Virus record (IMG/VR): IMGVR_UViG_2721755662_000003
DNA: 15,658 bases
Source: a virus
Lineage: Duplodnaviria; Heunggongvirae; Uroviricota; Caudoviricetes
Direction: 5' to 3' (one strand)
The notes under the pieces were generated by a model, which saw nothing but the letters and a program-made list of their open reading frames with translations, was not told the origin of the DNA and searched no databases. The position numbers and the translations under genes were made by a program. Shown here one piece after another: positions 1 through 15,658 of the stretch. Numbering within the stretch: position 1 is the stretch's first letter; every line of letters begins with the position of its first letter.

Positions 1-1218
1 ATGAACAAACTGAGCGATACCTTGCTAAGGAAACTTCATGGTAAGCCAGCGGAGAAAAACACGTTTTATAGTGATGGCGGAAACCTGAGCGTGAAATATT
101 TAACATCAGGGAAATTGACCTGGTATTTCACATACAGGGCCGGAACGGGAAGGGAGACACGACCCGAACGCATTAAGCTGGGAAGTTATCCTGATCTGAG
201 CCTGAAAGCAGCCAGGGAAAAAGCCGCACAGTGTCGCACATGGCTGGCTGAGGGGAAAAATCCACGTCATGAGATGAATTACACCGTACAGGAAGCGTTA
301 AAGCCCGTAACGGTTGGCGATGCGCTCACCTACTGGCTTGAGTATTACGTAAAGGAAAACCGCGTGGATTATATCGCCCTGAAAAGGCGACTTAATAATC
401 ACGTAATACAGCAGATTGGTGCTATGCCGCTGGATAAATGCGAGCTACGGCACTGGCTGGCCTGTTTTGACCAGGTGGCAAAGCGAACGCCTGTTACTGC
501 CGGATTCGTGCTACAGGCGTGCAAACAGGCGCTTAAGTTCTGCCGTAGGCGGCGCTATGCAATCAGCAACGTTCTGGACGATCTGAACGTTGCGGACGTT
601 GGGAAAAAACCGGATATAAGCGAACGTGTCTTAAGTAACAAAGAACTTGGCGAATTATTGCAGGCACTGGACAAAAAAATATTCTCCCCTTACTACGTCG
701 CGTTAATCCGCCTCCTGATTGTCTTCGGAGCCAGAACGGTAGAACTGAGGTTATCGGAGATCGGGGAGTGGGATTTTACGGAAATGCTATGGACCGTTCC
801 GAAGGAGCACAGCAAAACGAAGGTCGCAATATTCCGGCCCATACCGGAAGCGATCCTGCCGTTCGTCACGCAGCTGGTGGAGCAGAACAGGCACACGGGC
901 TTATTGCTGGGGGAAGTGAAACAGGAGGCCAGCGTATCGCAGTATGGAAGATTAGCGCACAGGAGGCTTAATCACCCTCACTGGTCACTGCATGACATCC
1001 GGCGCACCTTTACAACCATGCTGAACGATTTAGGCGTTGATCCGCATGTCGTGGAGCAGCTTACAGGCCACCAGATGCCAGGAATGCAGCGAGTTTATAA
1101 TCATTCCCGTTATCTGGATGCGAAACGCAATGCGCTGGATATGTGGACGGAGCGGTTAGGGATACTGGCGGGAACACATGAAAACGTAACCACGCTACCC
1201 GTAGCCAGAAGAAAATAA
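1..1218 (+). CDS. int: Tyrosine recombinase, P4-family integrase (405 aa)
   Basis: N-terminal arm-binding-like region (LSDTLLRKL..GKP..YSDGGNLSVKY..WYFTYR..IKLGSYPDLSLKAAREKA) and C-terminal catalytic region with HDIRRTF...GHQ...RVYNHSRY (His/Arg/Tyr pattern of tyrosine recombinases); ORF starts at window position 1. Confidence 0.9.
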   Translation: MNKLSDTLLRKLHGKPAEKNTFYSDGGNLSVKYLTSGKLTWYFTYRAGTGRETRPERIKLGSYPDLSLKAAREKAAQCRTWLAEGKNPRHEMNYTVQEALKPVTVGDALTYWLEYYVKENRVDYIALKRRLNNHVIQQIGAMPLDKCELRHWLACFDQVAKRTPVTAGFVLQACKQALKFCRRRRYAISNVLDDLNVADVGKKPDISERVLSNKELGELLQALDKKIFSPYYVALIRLLIVFGARTVELRLSEIGEWDFTEMLWTVPKEHSKTKVAIFRPIPEAILPFVTQLVEQNRHTGLLLGEVKQEASVSQYGRLAHRRLNHPHWSLHDIRRTFTTMLNDLGVDPHVVEQLTGHQMPGMQRVYNHSRYLDAKRNALDMWTERLGILAGTHENVTTLPVARRK

Positions 1219-1235: not shown

Positions 1236-1251
1236 CAGTATGCGCATACTG
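1236..1251. promoter_or_regulatory. Perfect 16-bp palindrome CAGTATGCGCATACTG just downstream of int stop
   Basis: Read directly: cagtatgc/gcatactg is self-complementary; preceded by two T-runs; operator-like or hairpin. Confidence 0.4.
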
Positions 1252-1266
1252 GATATGCGAACAGAT

Positions 1267-1310
1267 ACAACGTGCAACAATGAGCAACAATGTGGAACAA
1301 CTACGAACAA
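1267..1310 (-). repeat. Five direct repeats of ACAA (minus-strand TTGT, mostly TTGTTC/G) with exact 10-bp phasing
   Basis: atACAA cgtgcaACAA tgagcaACAA tgtggaACAA ctacgaACAA at 1267,1277,1287,1297,1307; same motif as arrays at 7899-7949 and 15383-15408. Confidence 0.65.
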
Positions 1311-1405
1311 GAGGCGAAAAAGCGTACGGATTTATAAGTAGCTGATTTTTAATGTGTTACTGGTTTTTTGTACACTAGCGAATCACTCTTTAAAGAGCGA
1401 GAAAA

Positions 1406-1432
1406 AAGGCATGGAACAATATTTTATGCCTT
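1406..1432. terminator. Hairpin AAGGCAT-13 nt-ATGCCTT flanked by A-run and TTTGTATT; candidate bidirectional terminator between int and alpA
   Basis: 7-bp inverted repeat 1406-1412/1426-1432, T-rich flank on both strands. Confidence 0.35.
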
Positions 1433-1583
1433 TGTATTAACATGAATTTAAAAGATTTTATTCTTACTGTTTCATTTTCTGTAAATCATACATCCTCAGT
1501 ATTTGCCATTCATCACTCTAGCGGGAACAATACGACACAATAAGACACCTGATGACTCTTTAAGAAACGAAAGGGGGGCAATA

Positions 1584-1772
1584 GTGTTAAGCACTGATCG
1601 GTTTATACGTGAAAAAGAATGCGAAAAACTAACCGGCCTTAGCCGTACGTGTCGCTACCGCCTGGAAAAGGCCGGACAATTCCCATCACGTCGTAAACTT
1701 GGCGGTCGTTCCGTTGGCTGGTCTTTATCCGAGGTTCTGGCCTGGAAGGATAGCTGCAAGGCAGTTCATTAA
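1584..1772 (+). CDS. alpA: AlpA/Vis-family winged-helix regulator/excisionase (about 62 aa from GTG 1584; maximal ORF from ATG 1503)
   Basis: Sequence LSTDRFIREKECEKLTGLSRTCRYRLEKAGQFPSRRKLGGRSVGWSLSEVLAWKD matches the AlpA pattern; RBS aagggggg 5 nt upstream of GTG 1584. Confidence 0.85.
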   Translation: MLSTDRFIREKECEKLTGLSRTCRYRLEKAGQFPSRRKLGGRSVGWSLSEVLAWKDSCKAVH

Positions 1773-2859: not shown

Positions 2860-3140
2860 CGCTTGCAAAAAATTATCACGGGGCTGTATGCTTCCCCCGT
2901 CGCCCACATGGCGACCGGGTTTGACAGCCTGAATACATCTGGCGGACAGCCGCCCACATCCGATAAGCGGTTTTTTTGTGTCCGTAAACCTACCCATACC
3001 CGCATTATGGCGGGGCGTAACGGGGGAGCCTTTGTGCTCGCTGGTTTCCAGATGACCAGTCTGTCAACCCTGTTACGTCTCGCCACCATGTTTGACAGCG
3101 TAGTAGCGAGACTCCTTAAAATTCATCTGGGAGCCTTTCA
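2860..3140 (+). promoter_or_regulatory. Structured leader between the two paralogous small genes: nested stem-loops, repeated GTTTGACAGC and GCCCACAT motifs, terminator-like GCGG+T7
   Basis: GGCTGT(2872)...CCCGTCGCC cacat GGCGACCGGG...ACAGCC(2930); GGCGG acag CCGCC (2932-2945); aagcgg ttttttt (2956-2967); CTGTCAA(3062)/TTGACAG(3092); GTCTCGC(3077)/GCGAGAC(3107). Confidence 0.35.
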
Positions 3141-4562: not shown

Positions 4563-4862
4563 ATGAAACTTAAATATTCTGGCTTAACTGCCAGTGGCAA
4601 CACTCACCCTAAATTTACGCGCGGCGATATTTACCGCGACCAGTACGGCGGCACGGTAATGATTAAGGGCGTGGAAGAACGGCGCGTAACCTACCGCCGT
4701 GAAGGTTACGAATATGATTGCGTGATGCCTGTTTATCAGTTCCGGCGTGATTTTTCTCTGGTACAGACCGCGCCGCATAACGTGTCCACCAGCAACGCCA
4801 GGGCACGGGCAAACATCCAGAAGCTGAAAACCATGATTAACGGATTCAGGGGTAAAAAATGA
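4563..4862 (+). CDS. Hypothetical protein (99 aa) immediately upstream of and overlapping primase start
   Basis: ORF track; stop overlaps primase ATG (ATGA). Confidence 0.5.
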   Translation: MKLKYSGLTASGNTHPKFTRGDIYRDQYGGTVMIKGVEERRVTYRREGYEYDCVMPVYQFRRDFSLVQTAPHNVSTSNARARANIQKLKTMINGFRGKK

Positions 4863-6613
4863 AACTGGCACCGAACGTAAAACAGCAGTCACGCGGCATA
4901 AAACACAAAGAAACAGAAGTCATTATTTTTGCGGGTAGTGATGCCTGGTCACACGCAAAACAATGGCAGGAACATGACGCGCGTATGGCCGGAGATAATG
5001 AGCCTCCTGTGTGGCTTGGGGAGCAGCAGTTATCCGAACTGGATAAGCTGCAAATTGTGCCGGAAGGCAGAAAATCCGTGCGCATATTCAGGGCCGGATA
5101 TCTTGCGCCAGTAATGATAAAGGCGATTGGTCAGAAGCTGGCGGCGGCAGGCGTACAGGATGCAAATTTTTACCCTGATGGTATGCACGGTCAGAAGGTG
5201 GAGAACTGGCGCGAATATCTGGCCCGTGAGCGCCAGAATCTTTCTGATGGTCTGGTCATTGAGCTTCCGGTAAAGCAAAAGGCGCAACTTTCGCAGATGG
5301 CGGACAGTGAGCGCGCGCAGCTGCTTGCCGATCGCTTTGATGGCGTTTGCGTACATCCTGAAAGTGAAATCGTTCACGTATGGCGCGGCGGGGTATGGTG
5401 TCCGGTCAGCACAATGGAACTTAGCCGCGAAATGGTGGCGATCTATTCAGAGCACAGGGCCACTTTCAGCAAGCGCGTAATCAATAACGCCGTGGAAGCG
5501 TTAAAAGTTATTGCCGAACCAATGGGCGAGCCGTCCGGCGATTTGTTGCCGTTCGCCAATGGTGCGCTTGACCTGAAAACGGGGGAATTTTCCCCGCACA
5601 CGCCGGAGAACTGGATCACCACGCACAACGGCATTGAGTACACGCCACCAGCACCAGGGGAGAACATCCGCGATAACGCGCCAAACTTTCATAAATGGCT
5701 TGAGCACGCAGCCGGAAAAGACCCGCGCAAGATGATGCGTATATGTGCCGCGCTGTACATGATTATGGCGAACCGGTACGACTGGCAGATGTTTATTGAG
5801 GCCACCGGAGACGGCGGGAGCGGTAAAAGTACATTCACACACATAGCCAGCCTTCTGGCAGGGAAACAGAACACGGTAAGCGCTGAAATGACATCGCTTG
5901 ATGATGCTGGTGGACGTGCGCAGGTTGTCGGGAGTCGTCTTATCGTCCTGGCTGACCAGCCGAAATATACAGGCGAAGGAACGGGCATCAAGAAAATCAC
6001 GGGCGGTGACCCCGTGGAAATTAACCCGAAATACGAAAAGCGTTTCACGGCGGTAATCAGGGCGGTGGTGCTGGCGACCAACAATAACCCGATGATATTC
6101 ACCGAACGGGCCGGAGGTGTGGCACGTCGTCGCGTGATTTTCCGTTTCGACAATATCGTCAGTGAGGCCGAAAAAGACAGGGAGCTACCGGAAAAGATCG
6201 CGGCTGAAATCCCTGTCATTATCCGCCGATTGCTGGCGAACTTTACCGACCCTGAGAAGGCACGGGCTTTACTACTGGAACAGCGTGACGGTGATGAAGC
6301 TCTGGCAATAAAGCAACAGACGGATCCGGTTATTGAGTTTTGCCAGTTCCTGAATTTTCTGGAGGAAGCACGCGGCCTGATGATGGGCGGCGGTGGCGAT
6401 TCAGTGAAGTACACGACCAGAAACAGCCTTTACCGCGTCTATCTGGCGTTTATGGCGTACGCAGGCAGGAGCAAACCGCTAAACGTAAATGACTTTGGCA
6501 AGGCTATGAAGCCAGCCGCGAAAGTTTACGGACATGAATATATTACGCGGAAAGTTAAGGGAGTAACGCAGACTAACGCAATAACAACAGACGAGTGCGA
6601 CGCGTTTTTATAA
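4859..6613 (+). CDS. Replication protein: P4-family primase C-terminal type (D5_N-like region plus SF3 helicase NTPase), 584 aa
   Basis: Walker A GDGGSGKST, Walker-B-like LIVLADQP, D5_N-like region LPFANGALDLKTGEFSPHTPENWITTHNGIEY; followed directly by iteron ori. Confidence 0.85.
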   Translation: MKLAPNVKQQSRGIKHKETEVIIFAGSDAWSHAKQWQEHDARMAGDNEPPVWLGEQQLSELDKLQIVPEGRKSVRIFRAGYLAPVMIKAIGQKLAAAGVQDANFYPDGMHGQKVENWREYLARERQNLSDGLVIELPVKQKAQLSQMADSERAQLLADRFDGVCVHPESEIVHVWRGGVWCPVSTMELSREMVAIYSEHRATFSKRVINNAVEALKVIAEPMGEPSGDLLPFANGALDLKTGEFSPHTPENWITTHNGIEYTPPAPGENIRDNAPNFHKWLEHAAGKDPRKMMRICAALYMIMANRYDWQMFIEATGDGGSGKSTFTHIASLLAGKQNTVSAEMTSLDDAGGRAQVVGSRLIVLADQPKYTGEGTGIKKITGGDPVEINPKYEKRFTAVIRAVVLATNNNPMIFTERAGGVARRRVIFRFDNIVSEAEKDRELPEKIAAEIPVIIRRLLANFTDPEKARALLLEQRDGDEALAIKQQTDPVIEFCQFLNFLEEARGLMMGGGGDSVKYTTRNSLYRVYLAFMAYAGRSKPLNVNDFGKAMKPAAKVYGHEYITRKVKGVTQTNAITTDECDAFL

Positions 6614-6619
6614 TTTTTT

Positions 6620-6860
6620 GTAATTGCTGTCTACCCTGTCTACCTGAGTAAAGAAAAATACATTTAATTCAGTGCATTAAGTTAGGTAGATAACCTTTTT
6701 TTACTGTCTACCCACTATCTACCCTCTCTACCTGATTTTACCTGAATCAGACAGGGAGGTAGACACGGGGTAGATAGTGGATAAAAGCACTCTACCCCGC
6801 TGAAAGCCGCGCCATTACTGGTATGAGGGCCACTAAGGTAGATAAGGTAGACAAGGGGAG
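6620..6860. repeat. Iteron-type replication origin: at least 11 copies of the core TCTACC/GGTAGA (octamer YRTCTACC) in both orientations with AT-rich spacers
   Basis: tgtctacc at 6628, 6637, 6706; tatctacc 6717; tctctacc 6726; ctctaccc 6791; inverted copies ggtaga at 6685, 6758, 6771, 6838, 6847; AT-rich tracts 6611-6620, 6650-6680, 6692-6702. Confidence 0.7.
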
Positions 6861-7587: not shown

Positions 7588-7599
7588 GGGGTGGGGACG

Positions 7600-7872
7600 A
7601 TGGTACATGACCGCATAGCGGAAGAACTGGAGGCGAAAGGCTTTTACCGGAGAGCGTCGGCGCGATGGGGTGAAGTCATGCAACTGGTGGAGACAGACAA
7701 GGAACGGCATCACATCACGATGCGACGGCTGGAATGTTCCAGGAAGGCACAGAGGCCACCGGAGCCGCCGGATAACTACGGAGACCTGAAAAAGGCGGTC
7801 GATCGCACTTATGCCGAAATGGGTATGGATGGTGCTGGTAATGAAATATGGCGAAATTACCAGGACAGATAA
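7600..7872 (+). CDS. Probable PerC-family transcriptional activator (about 90 aa from ATG 7600)
   Basis: N-terminal MVHDRIAEELEAKGFYRRASARWGEVM matches my recollection of the PerC/Pch motif; SD gaggggtgggga upstream. Confidence 0.5.
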   Translation: MVHDRIAEELEAKGFYRRASARWGEVMQLVETDKERHHITMRRLECSRKAQRPPEPPDNYGDLKKAVDRTYAEMGMDGAGNEIWRNYQDR

Positions 7873-7878
7873 TCACAC

Positions 7879-7902
7879 AGCCGGAGCAATCCGGCTTTTT
7901 GT
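7879..7902 (+). terminator. Rho-independent terminator: AGCCGGA-GCAA-TCCGGCT then TTTTTGT
   Basis: 7-bp GC-rich stem, GNRA-type tetraloop, T-run immediately 3'. Confidence 0.75.
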
Positions 7903-7949
7903 CATGTTTTGTAAATTATTTGTTCGTGGTTGTTCCACGTTGTTCACTG
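7899..7949 (+). repeat. Five 10/11-bp-phased TTGT repeats (ttgtca, ttgtaa, ttgttc, ttgttc, ttgttc) upstream of the capsid operon
   Basis: TTGT at 7899, 7909, 7920, 7930, 7940; same motif as 1267-1310 (opposite strand) and 15383-15408. Confidence 0.65.
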
Positions 7950-8000
7950 AGCGGATCGGCATATTTTACCCGAACTGAATCATGATTATTCTCGCCCGTG

Positions 8001-8158
8001 GTGCCAGGACGCTGGGGCCACTTTTCCGCCTGTTAATGTTCTCGCCAATATTCATTACCAGGCGGGAAAACGATCGGTGCGATTGCTGATTTCCTTATGA
8101 AAAACGGTTGAGTTTTTGCCGCGTCCTGGAGTTCCTTACTTAACCCCAGGACTTTTTT
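8001..8158 (+). promoter_or_regulatory. Structured untranslated leader of the capsid operon: nested inverted repeats and a hairpin plus T7 run ending 2 nt before the capsid ATG; no SD
   Basis: TTTTCCGCCTG(8022-8032)/CAGGCGGGAAAA(8059-8070); CCAGGACGC(8004-8012)/GCGTCCTGG(8121-8129); TCCTGG(8124-8129)/CCAGGA(8146-8151) followed by CTTTTTTTA. Confidence 0.4.
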
Positions 8159-8159
8159 T

Positions 8160-9317
8160 ATGCCGAGAATAATCGAATTACGCCAGCAGAAAACCGCCAT
8201 TAAAAATCAGATGCGCGACATGCTGGAGAACGCGGAAAAAGAAAACCGCAGTCTTAACGATGCTGAGGGCGCAAAATTTGACGAATTACGCGCTAAAGCT
8301 GAATCCCTCGATAAAGACATTTCCCGCCTTGAAGCCATTGCAGACGAAGAGCGCAGCAAGCCAGGTAAAAGCAGTCAGACCACTGACCCAGCCGAACTAC
8401 GTCACTACATTCTGACAGGTGAAACCCGCGCATTAAGTACAGGCGTTCCCGCTGATGGTGGTTATACCGTTATCCCCGAACTGAACACCGAAATCATGCG
8501 AATGCTGACGGATGAATCCACCATGCGCCGCATCTGTACCGTGAAGAAAATCAGCAGCAACGAGTTTAAGCAGCTTGTTTCCGCTGGCGGTGCGACCGTT
8601 AACCACGGTGAAGAGGGTAAGGCACGCGAACAGACCAGCACCCCGCAGATTAACGAGGTGAGCATTAAGCTGTATCCGGTCTATGCGTACCCGCGCACCA
8701 CGCAGGAAATCGTGGATTTTTCCGATGTGGACATCCTTTCATGGCTGACGGGCGAGATTGGCGACAACTTCACGGAAACCGAAGAAAGCGATCTGGTTGT
8801 GGGCGACGGTGACAAAAAAGCAAAAGGCTTTTTATCCGTACCCCGTGCAGAGAAGAACGACAAAGAGCGTGATTTTGGTACGTTGCAGGTAATTAAACCT
8901 TCCGAATCTCTGGCGTGGACATCTGCGGACCCGCTGATCGACCTGAAATTTGCATTACGTAAAAAATACCGCAAAAACGCGGTCTGGGTGGTTAACTCCA
9001 CGACGGCGGCAAAACTTCAGAAGGTGAAGAACGCGAACGGTGATTACATCTGGCGCGACCGTTTACAGGCGGGTGATCCTGATACGTTACTGGGCCTTCC
9101 GGTCGAATATCTGGAGTTTATGCCGGATAACGTTATTGCCCTGGGTGACTTCAAACGCGGTTACTACATTGTTGATCACGAAACAGGTGTTCGCACCAGA
9201 CCGGACAACCTCACAGAGCCGGGCTTCATCAAAATTTTCACGCAGAAATATTTAGGCGGTGGCGTGGTGGATTCGAACGCGATCAAGATTCTGGAACTGC
9301 CACAGGACGACGATTAA
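8160..9317 (+). CDS. Major capsid protein, HK97 fold, with N-terminal coiled-coil delta (scaffold) domain; 385 aa
   Basis: N-terminal 100 aa charged/helical (delta-domain-like), remainder typical HK97-family MCP; same length as HK97 gp5; prohead protease gene follows. Confidence 0.9.
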   Translation: MPRIIELRQQKTAIKNQMRDMLENAEKENRSLNDAEGAKFDELRAKAESLDKDISRLEAIADEERSKPGKSSQTTDPAELRHYILTGETRALSTGVPADGGYTVIPELNTEIMRMLTDESTMRRICTVKKISSNEFKQLVSAGGATVNHGEEGKAREQTSTPQINEVSIKLYPVYAYPRTTQEIVDFSDVDILSWLTGEIGDNFTETEESDLVVGDGDKKAKGFLSVPRAEKNDKERDFGTLQVIKPSESLAWTSADPLIDLKFALRKKYRKNAVWVVNSTTAAKLQKVKNANGDYIWRDRLQAGDPDTLLGLPVEYLEFMPDNVIALGDFKRGYYIVDHETGVRTRPDNLTEPGFIKIFTQKYLGGGVVDSNAIKILELPQDDD

Positions 9318-12855: not shown

Positions 12856-14500
12856 GTACGCAGAAGACGTAAAAACGGGCAAAATTCCGGCCTGTAAACG
12901 GCTGAAACAGGCCGTTAAACGGTACTTTTCGGACCTTAAAAGCCCCCTTTACACGTTCGATCGTGAGGTTGTGGAGCGGTTTATTGCCTTTTCCAGGGTG
13001 TGCCCGCACGTAAAAGGACCGATGCGTGGCAGACCCATTGAGCTGGAGCCGTGGCAGCAGTTCGCCTTTGCGTGCATCCTCGGCTTTAAGGTTAAGGCCA
13101 CCGGACGGCGCAAATACACGAGCGCCTTTATCGAAGTGCCGCGCAAAAATGCGAAATCCACGACCGCCGCGATTCTGGCTAACTGGTTTCTGATTATGGA
13201 GAACGGTCAGCAGGATATCTACACCGCAGCGGTGAGCCGTGACCAGGCGCGGATCGTCTTTGATGATGCGCGTCAGATGTGCCTTTTATCCCGACCGTTA
13301 CGCAGGCGGGTGAATATTCAGGCGCATAAGGTGATACACCCGAAAAGCAACAGCCTGTTAAAGCCGCTGGCAGCAAAAGCGGCAACCATCGAGGGAACAA
13401 ACCCCAGCCTTTCCATCGTGGACGAATACCACTTGCACCCCGATAACGGCGTTTATTCCGCGCTTGAGCTGGGGATGGGCGCACGTCCCGAAGGGCTGTT
13501 ATTTGCCATTACCACATCAGGCAGCAACGTCGTTTCAGCCTGTAAGCAGCACTATGATTATTGCTGCCAGATCCTGGACGGCGAAGAGGTTAACGATTCA
13601 ATTTTTGTACTGATTTACGAACTGGACGACGAAAACGAGGTTGATGATCCGGCGATGTGGATAAAGGCGAACCCTAATATTGATGTTTCCGTCGATCGTG
13701 AAAAACTGGCCTCAACCATCCAGAAAGCGCGGGGTATTCCGTCGCAGTGGGTGGAGATGATGACAAAGCGATTTAATATCTGGTGCCAGGGGGCTACCCC
13801 GTGGATGGGTAACGGCGCATGGGCTGAGTGTGCCGGAACGTTCACGGAGGAAGATTTACACGGCCAGGAGTGTTACGCGGGGCTGGACTTATCATCAACC
13901 AGCGATATTTCCAGCGTGTGCTATGCCTTTCCGGTCGGTAAAACCATTATGCTGGTTTCCCGTCACTATCTGCCGGAATTTCAGCTACAGAACCCCGCCA
14001 ATAAAAACCGCGCCATCTATCGTCAGTGGGCTAAAGCAGGCTGGATACGCACAACGCCTGGCGACTGCATTGATTACGACCGGATCAGAGATGACATCAT
14101 GCAGGACGCGGAGAAATTTAATATCAGGCTGGTGGGCTTTGATACGTGGAACGCCACGCATCTCAGAACGCAATTACAGGGGGCAGGTTTTGAGGTGGAG
14201 CCGTTCCCGCAAACCTACCTCAGATTCAGTCCGGCGGCGAAATCGTTCGAAGTTTTTGTTAACCGCAGGGTGATTGTGCATCGTGGCGATCCGGTGTTGT
14301 CCTGGTCGATGAGTAACGTCGTGATGCAGAGTGACGCGAACGCCAATATCAAGCCGAACAAGAAAAAATCACCGAACAAGATAGACCCGAGCGTGGCGGC
14401 GCTGATGGCGTTTGGTACATTCCAGGCAGAGCATGAGGATTTTGCTTTTGATATAAGCGACAGCCACCGCCAGAAACTGGAAGAATTTAGCGGGGTGTAA
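12839..14500 (+). CDS. terL: Terminase large subunit (553 aa)
   Basis: N-terminal ATPase region then nuclease region, typical TerL layout; overlaps TerS; size typical. Confidence 0.9.
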   Translation: MTAWNKYAEDVKTGKIPACKRLKQAVKRYFSDLKSPLYTFDREVVERFIAFSRVCPHVKGPMRGRPIELEPWQQFAFACILGFKVKATGRRKYTSAFIEVPRKNAKSTTAAILANWFLIMENGQQDIYTAAVSRDQARIVFDDARQMCLLSRPLRRRVNIQAHKVIHPKSNSLLKPLAAKAATIEGTNPSLSIVDEYHLHPDNGVYSALELGMGARPEGLLFAITTSGSNVVSACKQHYDYCCQILDGEEVNDSIFVLIYELDDENEVDDPAMWIKANPNIDVSVDREKLASTIQKARGIPSQWVEMMTKRFNIWCQGATPWMGNGAWAECAGTFTEEDLHGQECYAGLDLSSTSDISSVCYAFPVGKTIMLVSRHYLPEFQLQNPANKNRAIYRQWAKAGWIRTTPGDCIDYDRIRDDIMQDAEKFNIRLVGFDTWNATHLRTQLQGAGFEVEPFPQTYLRFSPAAKSFEVFVNRRVIVHRGDPVLSWSMSNVVMQSDANANIKPNKKKSPNKIDPSVAALMAFGTFQAEHEDFAFDISDSHRQKLEEFSGV

Positions 14501-14957: not shown

Positions 14958-15313
14958 AAGCGCAAAATTGCGCTTGCTGAATAATCATTATGATTACGCA
15001 GATGATTAAGGAATGACCGAAGGCGGAAATTCGCCTGTGGTTAATGGGGGAGTTGCAGATCTGCAACTCGACCATGAAACTACGGAAACTACCCGTAGTT
15101 TGGGTAGTAAGAGTAACACCCAGATTTTGGGGCTTACTCGTGATACCCAAATTTGGGGTATCAGTGGCAACCATAACGACTTTCGTTACGGTTGATGCTT
15201 TTACCCCATTGGGGGAAAGGTATTACGATAATCATAACACCTACCGAACAGGTAAAGCCCACCAGCCTGATTAACGTTTAACCGGAAAAAAATTCCGGTA
15301 GGTGGGGATCCCC
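14958..15313. promoter_or_regulatory. Non-coding, palindrome-dense right arm
   Basis: AAGCGCAAAATTGCGCTT (14958-14975); TAATCATtATGATTA (14982-14996); perfect 18-bp AGTTGCAGATCTGCAACT (15051-15068); GAAACTAC x2 and 8-bp stem AACTACGG/CCGTAGTT (15076-15100); GATACCCAAATTTGGGGTATC (15142-15162); CCGGAA-aaaaa-TTCCGG (15282-15298); GGGGATCCCC (15304-15313). Confidence 0.4.
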
Positions 15314-15382: not shown

Positions 15383-15447
15383 TTGTGTCTATTTGTTCCA
15401 CGTTGTTTCATACAGTGCACCGAACGGTGTAGTCACTGGTGTAGTCA
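15383..15447 (+). repeat. att-proximal direct repeats: TTGTGT/TTGTTC/TTGTTT (15383, 15394, 15403) and GGTGTAGTCA x2 (15426-15435, 15438-15447)
   Basis: Read directly; lies roughly 70-140 bp inside the inferred right junction, where arm-type and Xis-type sites usually sit. Confidence 0.45.
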
Positions 15448-15493
15448 TTTTGCGATTTTTGGCACTTTTTGCGGTGTTAATTATTTAATTAAA

Positions 15494-15658
15494 TCAATGT
15501 GTTATGCGAAATAAGTTATATATAACAGCAATAAATAATGCGAGAATAAACGGCACGATGATCTCGGCGGCAAAACGGATACCGCAGAGAATAATGACCA
15601 GCATTCCCAACATAATGACGATTTTTAGGCCATTGAGCGTGATGATCGGCTTTGCCAT
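15494..15658 (-). pseudogene. tqsA: Truncated 5' fragment of a tqsA (ydgG)-like AI-2 exporter gene: 46 host-like codons then 8 island-derived codons and stop
   Basis: Minus-strand translation [46 protein letters not shown] then YNLFRITH-stop; the first 46 residues match my recollection of the E. coli TqsA N-terminus. Confidence 0.55.

What the first reader, a model, noticed from the sequence alone, without database searches (positions are those of the whole stretch)
1236..1310. Exactly 10-bp-phased ACAA/TTGTT array (5 copies) plus a perfect 16-bp palindrome between int and alpA
Five copies at 1267, 1277, 1287, 1297, 1307 place the motif on one face of the helix, the arrangement used by cooperative winged-helix binders such as Xis/Vis/AlpA-type proteins. 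The same motif recurs as phased arrays upstream of the capsid operon and near the right att end. I propose these are binding arrays for the island AlpA, linking excision control, alpA/int regulation and activation of the packaging operon. The adjacent palindrome CAGTATGCGCATACTG could be a second operator.
Basis: partly seen in the sequence, partly recalled or inferred. Interest (0 to 1): 0.7.

Follow-up and report, generated by a model that had tools for sequence, protein, structure and literature searches.

The report
AlpA operator arrays of a capsid-forming island
The 10-bp-phased ACAA/TTGTT repeats are real and widely conserved, and are most likely the DNA sites where the island's small AlpA protein lines up to trigger excision, boost its own gene and switch on the island's capsid genes; the neighbouring palindrome is probably not functional.

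Summary
Five ACAA cores lie exactly 10 bp apart (1267-1307), and the palindrome CAGTATGCGCATACTG is at 1236-1251. The array is far beyond chance; the palindrome is not. The window is an EcCIEDL933-type capsid-forming PICI inserted in E. coli tqsA. The same phased motif (TTGTTC on the other strand) recurs upstream of the capsid operon (7909-7945), in the right att arm (15383-15408), as a pair over the putative alpA -10 (1525-1540), and, outside the window, in two blocks in attL upstream of int. A second repeat, the tandem GGTGTAGTCACT pair in both att arms, co-varies with the Int N-terminal domain, so it is the Int arm-type site. Across 267 related loci the phased motif instead follows the AlpA recognition helix: TTGT with SR[S/T]CRYRL, GTTY with CRTTRY, and GTAY with CRMHRYN. 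The last switch appears at four separate sites and is independent of the Int arm type. This matches the TorI, P4 Vis and 186 Apl paradigm of an excisionase that also regulates transcription. The palindrome is confined to one lineage, carries mutations in some members and is absent from the sister lineage. Binding itself is untested. AlpA operators do not appear to have been defined for PICIs, so this is a useful new member of a known kind.

The parts
1..1218 (+). int, a P4-type tyrosine integrase with an N-terminal arm-binding domain (the annotated start is 12 nt upstream of the window)
   Evidence: Pfam Arm-DNA-bind_3 and Phage_integrase; RefSeq annotation in L001
1236..1251 (.). Perfect 16-bp palindrome CAGTATGCGCATACTG; lineage-specific and probably not functional
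   Evidence: 34 of 53 spacers, mutated in L110/L126/L129, absent in the L004-L006 lineage; chance level
1265..1310 (-). Array 1: five 10-bp-phased units (TTGTTC, TTGTTC, TTGTTG, TTGTTG, TTGTAT read on the - strand); proposed AlpA operator array, distal element of alpA autoregulation
   Evidence: present in 53 of 53 distinct E-type spacers; spacer bases vary; L141 gained exactly one 10-bp unit; T1 T2 G3 T4 97-100% over 114 units
1405..1433 (+). Conserved hairpin flanked by an A-run and a T-run (terminator-like in both directions), separating int/array 1 from the alpA promoter
   Evidence: fold -12.5 kcal/mol, z -3.1; stem kept through compensatory changes between lineages
1503..1531 (+). Candidate alpA promoter: -35 TTGCCA, 17 bp, -10 AACAAT
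   Evidence: TTTGCCA-17-[A/C]ACAAT kept in 53 of 53 distinct spacers; TTTGCCA invariant in alignment A3
1525..1540 (-). Promoter-proximal pair of units (GAACAA, ACACAA on the + strand), overlapping the -10 and the start region of the alpA promoter
   Evidence: equivalent pair GAAC-N6-GAAC upstream of alpA in 59 of 63 distinct class-D sequences
1584..1772 (+). alpA, a 62-aa winged-helix protein (alpha2 = residues 21-29, wing 37-47); proposed reader of the arrays
   Evidence: Pfam PF05930; AF2 model pLDDT 86.5; Foldseek best hits are excisionases 8C3T, RdfS, Pukovnik Xis, TorI
7879..7896 (+). Terminator-like hairpin after perC, which isolates the capsid operon as its own transcription unit
7909..7945 (+). 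Array 2: TTGTAA (11 bp before the next unit), then TTGTTC x3 at 10 bp; proposed AlpA-dependent upstream activating site of the capsid/packaging operon
   Evidence: the module TTTGTAAATTA-TTTGTTC... is conserved upstream of capsid genes in Kosakonia, Serratia, Enterobacter, Phytobacter and Yersinia islands and absent from non-capsid PICI packaging operons
7965..7992 (+). Candidate capsid-operon promoter: -35 TTTACC, 16 bp, -10 TATTCT; the array then spans about -90 to -55
   Evidence: read (TTTAC[A/C/T]-16-TAnnTT conserved in all seven capsid-type loci compared); below the threshold of the scan tool, so inferred
15383..15408 (+). Array 3: TTGTGT, TTGTTC, TTGTTT at 10 bp in the right att arm; proposed AlpA (RDF) sites for excision
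   Evidence: conserved in all six whole islands at three different att sites
15426..15449 (+). Int arm-type sites: tandem GGTGTAGTCACT GGTGTAGTCATT
   Evidence: the variant co-varies with the Int N-terminal domain at both island ends
15522..15530 (.). attR core ATAACAGCA, shared with attL at L001 15706-15714; junction with the 5' fragment of tqsA

Best explanation
The phased ACAA/TTGTT units are operator sites for the island's own AlpA, a small winged-helix protein of the excisionase (RDF) type. It binds head-to-tail, one monomer per helical turn.

Inferred roles at each site:
(1) In attL (two blocks of about four units between the core and the Int arm-type pair) and in attR (three units next to the arm-type pair), AlpA filaments bend the arms so that Int, bound to GGTGTAGTCACT arm sites, carries out excision.
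(2) Upstream of the capsid operon, a three- to four-unit array at about -90 to -55 recruits RNA polymerase to a weak promoter and turns on capsid and packaging genes.
(3) Array 1, the reported finding, is the high-occupancy distal element of alpA autoregulation. It sits 220-224 bp (about 21 helical turns) upstream of a two-unit pair that overlaps the alpA -10. The two probably communicate by looping, which gives the positive feedback reported for EcCICFT073.

What is shown here: the existence, significance, conservation and positions of the arrays; their separation from the Int arm sites; and covariation with the AlpA recognition helix. What is inferred: physical binding, the sign of regulation at each promoter, and looping. 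The palindrome at 1236-1251 is not part of the system.
For: Existence and significance.

Conservation: array 1 is in 53 of 53 distinct E. coli/Shigella-type int-alpA spacers, with invariant cores and variable spacer bases, and one clean 10-bp unit gain. The attL and attR arrays are in all six whole islands at three chromosomal sites. Ten-bp periodic conservation is seen in an anchored stack of 21 loci from about 10 genera. The capsid-upstream module is conserved across genera.

Not Int: the tandem 12-bp repeat GTGTAGTC/GTGTAGTT/GTGTATCA/GTGCAGTC follows the Int N-terminal domain at both island ends, while the AlpA classes mix freely with arm types.

AlpA link, motif classes by alpha2 helix:
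- SR[S/T]CRYRL goes with T1 T2 G3 T4 (97-100%, 114 units).
- CRTTRY[I/L/M/V][M/L] goes with G3 T4 T5 (95-100%, 72 units).
- CRMHRYNL plus wing RRQLG goes with G3 T4 A5 in the attL-proximal array, the core-proximal block, the alpA-proximal pair (TTAC-N6-rTAC in 4 of 5 distinct sequences, against GAAC-N6-rAAC in 59 of 63 class-D sequences) and attR of L189.
- L024 shares its Int N-terminus and arm repeat with class-D islands L008, L046 and L084.

Structure: the AF2 model places the varying residues in alpha2 (21-29) and the wing; the nearest solved structures are excisionases.

Precedent: TorI has five GTTCG-type sites in two blocks in attL, overlapping PintS (PMC2951348). RDF sites are direct repeats one turn apart, and Apl is both RDF and regulator (PMC7498355). 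P4 and CP4-57 have the same layout of four phased units, a 12-bp arm pair, then int.

Function: in EcCICFT073 (region 100% identical to L004), AlpA activates PalpA and by itself causes excision and replication (PMC6092414). An alpA mutation abolishes EcCIEDL933 induction (bioRxiv 10.1101/2022.09.08.507074).

Geometry: the distance from array 1 to the -10 is 220-224 bp in 51 of 53 spacers.
Against: No binding experiment exists, and the link to AlpA is correlative.

The covariation rests on few independent evolutionary events: one E/D split, one M lineage, and the deeper P4/CP4-57 GTCC group. Other island proteins also differ between those lineages.

The orientation of units relative to the regulated gene differs between sites. 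They point toward the gene at the capsid promoter and at int, and away from alpA in array 1 and the proximal pair. One simple activation geometry therefore cannot hold for all.

A pair of sites over the -10 would normally repress, whereas positive autoregulation was reported.

The capsid promoter and the alpA -10 are weak consensus matches; the capsid one was not called by the scan tool.

Array 1 has no counterpart in class D and M islands, which carry an ORF there, so its role is lineage-specific.

The constant 220-bp distance could partly reflect shared ancestry.
Confidence: 0.72

Rival explanations
1. The arrays are bound by a different protein that co-evolves with the island lineage. Candidates are another island protein (PerC, an Icd-like or small hypothetical protein) or an Xis/activator of the helper phage that triggers induction. 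AlpA would then act elsewhere.
For: The inducer that turns on alpA is unknown (PMC6092414). Excisionase crosstalk between a PICI AlpA paralogue and a helper-phage Xis has been shown (PMC11773190). The covariation is lineage-level, so any co-inherited DNA-binding protein would fit. perC lies directly upstream of array 2.
Against: AlpA and Int are the only proteins shared by all array-bearing loci examined; many class-D loci gave no PerC hit. The substitutions that accompany the motif switches lie in the AlpA recognition helix and wing. AlpA alone, without a helper phage, causes excision in EcCICFT073 and in PICMI, which needs an RDF site in att, and the arrays are the only non-Int repeats there. 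Islands of classes D and M occur in related hosts.
Confidence: 0.13
2. The phased units are additional arm-type sites for the integrase N-terminal domain.
For: They lie in both att arms next to int, and Int has an arm-binding domain. Lambda P'1-P'3 arm sites are also closely spaced direct repeats (established knowledge).
Against: A separate tandem 12-bp repeat accounts for the arm sites and co-varies with the Int N-terminus at both ends, 11-15 kb apart. The phased motif stays the same across three Int N-terminal/arm variants, and it changes (GTT to GTA) between islands with the same variant. Arrays also sit at the capsid and alpA promoters, 1.4-8 kb from the core.
Confidence: 0.03
3. Array 1 has no function of its own. 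It would be a relic, for example a duplicated att-arm segment or slippage product, carried along between int and alpA. Alternatively the phasing reflects intrinsic DNA curvature or a host nucleoid protein.
For: Array 1 is absent from class D and M islands. Unit number varies from 5 to 6, with one slippage-like gain. Its orientation is inverted relative to the att arrays.
Against: It is present in 53 of 53 distinct spacers spanning about 25% sequence divergence, with 97-100% conservation of four core positions while the six intervening positions vary freely. Its distance to the alpA -10 is held to 220-224 bp. The motif switches with the AlpA helix, which a host factor or curvature would not explain.
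Confidence: 0.07
4. The palindrome CAGTATGCGCATACTG is a second operator for a dimeric regulator.
For: It is perfect, intergenic and adjacent to array 1. In a 365-bp spacer alone such a palindrome is expected in under 1% of simulations.
Against: Window-wide it is within chance (26% of simulations; a second one is at 15052). It is present only in the lineage that shares this int 3' end, is disrupted by point mutations in L110, L126 and L129, and is replaced by CAGGATGCGGACAACG in the sister lineage, where the array starts 21 bp earlier. No T-run follows it on either strand, so it is not a terminator either.
Confidence: 0.07

Closest known systems
TorI (RDF) sites in attL of the KplE1/CPS-53 prophage
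   Same: A small winged-helix excisionase. It has five cooperative sites in two blocks between the core and int, with a block of three at a 10-bp period. The site core is GTTCG/GATCG/GTCCG, close to the GTTC of these arrays. The sites are interleaved with Int arm-type sites and overlap the int promoter region (PMC2951348; PMC3509656). TorI is among the structural neighbours of the AlpA model.
   Different: TorI sites are described only in attL, and TorI represses intS. Here arrays lie in both att arms and also at two promoters far from att, and published data show no AlpA effect on Pint.
P4 Vis and CP4-57 AlpA (PF05930) with P4-type integrases
   Same: Same protein family and the same att layout: four 10-bp-phased units, then a 12-bp tandem arm-type pair, then int (P4: TCGTCC/TCTTCC/TTGTCC/AAATCC then TTGGGGGCATAA x2; CP4-57: TTGTCC/AAGTCC/AGAACT/AAATCC then TAGGCCCATTGA x2). 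The P4 record annotates ORF88 (Vis) as 'excisionase and transcriptional regulator'. From my own knowledge (Polo 1996, Cali 2004; not read here), Vis also acts on the P4 late promoters.
   Different: The unit core is GTCC with a ...TIY... helix, against TTGT/GTTC with ...[T/C]RY.... P4 does not encode a capsid, so there is no capsid-operon array. The Vis footprints were not checked here.
Dual-purpose RDF/regulators 186 Apl and P2 Cox
   Same: One small protein binds arrays of direct repeats one helical turn apart, both at att (directing excision) and at promoters (switching the transcription programme) (PMC7498355; PMC3936717 listed).
   Different: The protein fold family is unrelated to AlpA in sequence. 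Their promoter role is mainly repression at the lysis-lysogeny switch, whereas AlpA is reported to be an activator.
Lambda Xis X1-X1.5-X2 microfilament and BldC/RdfS filaments
   Same: Head-to-tail winged-helix multimers, one per DNA turn, that bend DNA (RdfS paper PMC11963761). RdfS, Pukovnik Xis and BldC are structural neighbours of the AlpA model.
   Different: Lambda Xis sites are in one arm only and have no known role at a structural-gene promoter.

Membership tests
RDF (excisionase) operator arrays of the winged-helix Xis/TorI/Vis/AlpA type | Direct, head-to-tail repeats spaced one helical turn (10-11 bp) apart | tested here: met
   Exact 10-bp spacing of 5, 3(+1), 3 and 4+4 units; beyond chance
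RDF (excisionase) operator arrays of the winged-helix Xis/TorI/Vis/AlpA type | Located in an att arm, between the core and the Int arm-type sites | tested here: met
   attL L001 15737-15833 and attR window 15383-15408, each followed by the arm-type pair; cores defined at three att sites
RDF (excisionase) operator arrays of the winged-helix Xis/TorI/Vis/AlpA type | The element encodes a cognate small winged-helix RDF | tested here: met
   alpA 1584-1772, PF05930; AF2 model and excisionase structural neighbours
RDF (excisionase) operator arrays of the winged-helix Xis/TorI/Vis/AlpA type | Site sequence follows the DNA-reading residues of the RDF, not those of Int | tested here: met
   Three motif classes track the AlpA alpha2/wing; arm types are independent. 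Few independent events.
RDF (excisionase) operator arrays of the winged-helix Xis/TorI/Vis/AlpA type | The protein physically binds the sites and is needed for excision | not testable with these tools
   The requirement of AlpA for excision and induction is published for EcCICFT073, EcCIEDL933 and PICMI; binding sites are not defined in any paper found
Integrase arm-type sites | Sequence co-varies with the Int N-terminal arm-binding domain and occurs in both arms | tested here: not met
   Not met for the ACAA/TTGTT arrays; met for GGTGTAGTnnnT
Dual-function RDF/transcription regulator systems (Apl, Cox, Vis) | The same repeat arrays occur at promoters outside att | tested here: met
   Arrays at the capsid-operon control region and in the alpA upstream region; the promoters themselves are inferred
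Dual-function RDF/transcription regulator systems (Apl, Cox, Vis) | Transcription from those promoters changes with the RDF | not testable with these tools
   Only PalpA activation by AlpA is published; nothing on the capsid operon
Replication-origin iterons | Repeats next to the initiator gene, matching the island's ori repeats | tested here: not met
   The island's iterons (CTGTCTACC and TAAGGTAGA types) lie at 6627-6856, after the primase gene, and are unrelated in sequence
Capsid-forming PICI (EcCIEDL933 type), for the element as a whole | int-alpA-primase backbone plus its own capsid, protease, portal, connectors, HNH and terminase | tested here: met
   Pfam and annotation; 99% identical to the O157:H7 copy; description in bioRxiv 10.1101/2022.09.08.507074
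Palindromic operator of a dimeric regulator (for 1236-1251) | Conserved as a palindrome in homologous islands | tested here: not met
   34 of 53 spacers, one lineage only, with disrupting mutations

The most novel reading that the evidence does not exclude
Array 1 and the two-unit pair over the alpA -10, held about 21 helical turns apart, form an AlpA-bridged loop. The loop makes alpA a threshold, all-or-none switch. The same operator grammar could be read by Xis-type proteins of helper phages, so that a helper excisionase binding these arrays is the long-sought signal that first turns alpA on. One short motif would then couple helper induction, island excision and capsid production.
Probability: 0.12. 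Interest if true: 0.8.

Novelty: new member of a known kind. Interest (0 to 1): 0.5.

Why it matters
AlpA is the master switch of Gram-negative phage-inducible islands, which are present in about a fifth of complete E. coli genomes searched here, yet none of the papers I could find defines where it binds. This analysis gives:
- a concrete operator (TTGTTC units at a 10-bp period);
- a predicted regulon (both att arms, the alpA promoter, the capsid-operon promoter);
- a separate assignment of the Int arm-type sites;
- natural specificity variants (GTT against GTA) that make a clean swap experiment possible.

It also explains how capsid modules can move between islands: their array uses the full TTGTTC consensus, which both AlpA classes accept. 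And it makes the unknown induction step directly testable at defined DNA sites.

Tried and rejected
1. A strict ACAA-chain search in distant loci found nothing. I first read this as absence, but inspection and an anchored stack showed the motif is yyGTTy there.
2. The word-indexed protein search for AlpA gave only 19 hits; loci were obtained through pattern scans instead.
3. I looked for phased GTA arrays elsewhere in L024 and L027. Only the int-proximal one passed the strict filter. GTAC-containing repeats in L024 gap 2 are ori iterons, not AlpA-type arrays.
4. The promoter scan found no sigma-70 match for int, for the capsid operon, or for a leftward promoter next to array 1. The capsid promoter was inferred from cross-genus conservation instead. 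No promoter immediately downstream of array 1 is conserved.
5. The palindrome as a terminator was rejected: no T-run follows it on either strand.
6. The search for the 8C3T paper gave unrelated hits. The Mol Cell 2019 and 2025 bioRxiv cf-PICI papers say nothing on AlpA sites.
7. Rfam found no known RNA in the int-alpA spacer.
8. The weak hairpin around the alpA Shine-Dalgarno in the window is not better than shuffles (z 0.17).

Full report
**Observation.** The sequence is as described. CAGTATGCGCATACTG occupies 1236-1251 and is a perfect palindrome. ACAA begins at 1267, 1277, 1287, 1297 and 1307, as units ATACAA, CAACAA, CAACAA, GAACAA, GAACAA. The pattern ACAA-N6-ACAA-N6-ACAA occurs five times in the window against 0.00 expected. 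The matches fall at exactly three places: 1267-1310 on the + strand, and 7920-7943 and 15383-15406 on the - strand. In 500 simulated windows no 4-mer formed a chain longer than three at a 10-bp period. The palindrome is less special: 26% of simulated windows contain a perfect 16-bp palindrome, and this window has a second one at 15052.

**Context.** The window encodes the following genes:
- a P4-type integrase (1-1218)
- AlpA (1584-1772)
- a D5-type primase (4859-6613)
- SSB
- PerC (7591-7872)
- major capsid protein (8160-9317)
- prohead protease
- portal
- connectors
- HNH
- small and large terminase

It is 100% identical to a segment of E. coli FORC_069 and about 99% identical to the O157:H7 copy. 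That copy is EcCIEDL933, the prototype capsid-forming PICI (bioRxiv 10.1101/2022.09.08.507074). The island splits tqsA, so attL lies about 190 bp left of the window and attR is at about 15522-15530 (shared core ATAACAGCA).

- Upstream of int, outside the window, attL carries TTGTTC-N4-TTGTTT-N4-TTGTAG-N4-TTGTGC (L001 15800-15833). A second phased block lies nearer the core (15737-15775).
- A two-unit pair lies at 1525-1540.
- In both attL and attR the array is followed, after about 10-20 bp, by a tandem 12-bp repeat: GGTGTAGTCACT GGTGTAGTCA[C/T]T.

**Two repeat systems, two proteins.** Six whole islands at three chromosomal sites have 91-100% identical AlpA and keep all the ACAA arrays. The sites are tqsA, roxA/phoQ and abgR/smrA. 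The 12-bp repeat is GTGTAGTCACT in L001 and L002 and GTGTAGTTAAT in L003-L006, at both ends of each island. This matches two variants of the Int N-terminal arm-binding domain. L003 has the tqsA core and a catalytic region 96% identical to L001, but the other N-terminus and the other repeat at both ends, which are about 11 kb apart in L003.

In a wider set the pattern holds:
- GTGCAGTC goes with ...SQRIKLG.
- GTGTAGTC goes with ...PQRxKLG (8 versus 8 distinct sequences).
- GTGTATCAC goes with SDKKL...KLERL.

The 12-bp pair is therefore the Int arm-type site, as annotated for P4. The phased units belong to another protein.

**The phased motif follows AlpA.** I collected 267 loci. Reading the units at fixed offsets from the arm-type anchor, or from the int stop codon, gives three classes:

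| Class | AlpA alpha2 helix | Hosts or loci | Conserved unit positions |
|---|---|---|---|
| E | SR[S/T]CRYRL | E. coli, Shigella, this window | T1 T2 G3 T4 at 97-100% (114 units of array 1); position 5 only 70% T |
| D | CRTTRY[I/L/M/V][M/L] | Kosakonia, Serratia, Enterobacter, Yersinia, Raoultella, Hafnia and others | G3 T4 T5 at 95-100% (72-78 units); positions 1-2 relaxed |
| M | CRMHRYNL, wing RRQLG in place of RRKLG | L023, L024, L027, L028, L188, L189 | G3 T4 A5 |

The M-class switch is seen at four separate sites:
- the attL-proximal array (CCGTAC, TTGTAT, CGGTAC)
- the core-proximal block (GGTAT, GGTAA, GGTAT)
- the pair just upstream of alpA (TTAC-N6-rTAC in 4 of 5 distinct sequences, against GAAC-N6-rAAC in 59 of 63 class-D sequences)
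- attR of L189 (GTTC, GTAT, GTAC)

L024 shares its Int N-terminus and arm repeat with class-D islands L008, L046 and L084. Class D islands use all three arm types. The motif is therefore independent of Int.

The AlphaFold model (pLDDT 86.5) puts the varying residues in helix alpha2 (21-29) and in the beta-hairpin wing. The nearest solved structures are excisionases: GIsul2 8C3T with TM 0.83-0.90, then RdfS, Pukovnik Xis and TorI. At greater distance, P4 (Vis helix SRSTIYEL) and CP4-57 (AlpA helix ARATIYDW) have the same layout with GTCC-type units.

*Caveat:* these are few independent evolutionary events and the evidence is correlative.

**Array 1 itself.**
- It is present in all 53 distinct class-E int-alpA spacers (66 loci), with five or six in-phase units and freely varying 6-bp spacers.
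- L141 has gained exactly one 10-bp unit.
- The rest of the spacer holds a conserved hairpin at 1405-1433 (-12.5 kcal/mol, z -3.1, stem kept by compensatory changes, U-rich tails on both strands).
- It also holds an invariant TTTGCCA followed 17 bp later by [A/C]ACAAT in 53 of 53 spacers. This is a plausible alpA promoter whose -10 overlaps the first unit of the proximal pair.
- The last unit of array 1 lies 220-224 bp from that unit in 51 of 53 spacers. This is about 21 turns, and it holds across two lineages that differ by several indels.
- Class D and M islands have an ORF overlapping the int stop in place of array 1. They keep only the proximal pair, which is embedded in a hairpin that also contains the alpA Shine-Dalgarno sequence.

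**Array 2.** A terminator-like hairpin follows perC (7879-7896). Then come TTGTAA and three TTGTTC units (7909-7945). About 20 bp further lies TTTACC-16-TATTCT (7965-7992). The module TTTGTAAATTA-TTTGTTC... and a TTTAC[A/C/T]-16-TAnnTT promoter-like pair are conserved upstream of capsid genes in several genera. Classical PICIs with the same AlpA but a different packaging operon lack it. The array uses the full TTGTTC consensus, which satisfies both class-E and class-D preferences.

**Link to experiments.** L004's int-alpA region is 100% identical to CFT073. In EcCICFT073, AlpA activates its own promoter, does not affect Pint, and by itself causes excision and replication (PMC6092414). An alpA mutation abolishes EcCIEDL933 induction. 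In PICMI, AlpA is necessary and sufficient for excision (PMC10803314). None of the papers I could find defines an AlpA binding site.

The closest precedent is TorI. It has five cooperative sites with cores GTTCG/GATCG/GTCCG, in two blocks in attL, overlapping the intS promoter (PMC2951348). Dual-purpose RDFs such as 186 Apl bind direct repeats one turn apart at att and at promoters (PMC7498355).

**The palindrome.** It occurs in 34 of 53 spacers, all in one lineage. It is point-mutated in L110, L126 and L129. In the sister lineage it is replaced by CAGGATGCGGACAACG, and there the array begins 21 bp closer to int. It is not followed by a T-run. I regard it as non-functional or at most lineage-specific.

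**Verdict.** The arrays are real, highly non-random and conserved across genera. They are best explained as AlpA operator arrays of the RDF/regulator type. They serve excision in both att arms, alpA autoregulation (array 1 plus the proximal pair) and activation of the capsid operon. Confidence that AlpA is the binder is about 0.7. Confidence in the specific looping and activation role of array 1 is lower, about 0.4. This is a new, well-defined member of a known kind of system.

Noticed in passing
window 2886-3090: Rfam finds a C4 antisense RNA (3003-3090, 72.6 bits) and its a1/b1 target element (2886-2935), next to genes annotated as Icd-like. This looks like a P1/P7/P4-type c4-icd immunity module inside the island.
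   Followed up: no
window 6605-6856: Clusters of short direct and inverted repeats (CTGTCTACC x2, CTATCTACC, TAAGGTAGA x2.6, AGACACGGAGGT x2) just after the primase gene. These are probably the island's replication-origin iterons. L024 has analogous CCTGTACCA/CCTATACCA repeats after its replicase.
   Followed up: partly
window 8000-8159: The capsid-operon leader is highly structured. 8000-8070 folds at -33.6 kcal/mol (z -5.2). A hairpin at 8123-8152 contains the likely Shine-Dalgarno AGGA in its 3' arm and is followed by U7 and then the capsid ATG. The sequence differs, but a leader hairpin next to the start codon is also present in the capsid-type islands of other genera.
   Followed up: partly
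L008-L025, L027, L188, L189 (class D and M islands), about 20-110 nt upstream of alpA: alpA is preceded by a hairpin (GCCCTCG...CGAGGGC) with compensatory stem changes between loci. Its 3' arm holds the Shine-Dalgarno GAGG and its loop holds the two AlpA-type units. Upstream of it are one or two copies of a lineage-specific palindrome (GTGATATCAC or GGAAATTTCC), possibly the operator of another regulator or of the helper-phage inducer.
   Followed up: partly
L008-L025, directly after int: Class D and M islands have an ORF of about 240 aa that overlaps the int stop codon by ATGA. This resembles the int-overlapping gene iolg, which is essential for PICMI excision (PMC10803314). The E. coli-type islands, including this window, lack it and carry array 1 at that position.
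   Followed up: no
window 15052-15067 and 14123-14140 / 15254-15271: A second perfect 16-bp palindrome (GTTGCAGATCTGCAAC) lies in the right-hand accessory region. An 18-nt perfectly complementary inverted repeat (ATCAGGCTGGTGGGCTTT) links the 3' part of the large terminase gene with the region just before attR. Both are unexplained.
   Followed up: no
L002-L006, about 100-250 nt after perC: Classical (non-capsid) PICIs with the same AlpA have a different control region before their packaging operon. It has TTGCAAC/ATTGC/TGCAAT repeats around a near-consensus TATAAT and no TTGTTC array, which suggests a different activator, perhaps PerC.
   Followed up: no
window 1-12 and L001 15890-15902: RefSeq starts int at a GTG 12 nt upstream of the window's first base, so the window begins at an internal ATG of int. 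The island insertion leaves tqsA split into two pseudogene fragments.
   Followed up: yes
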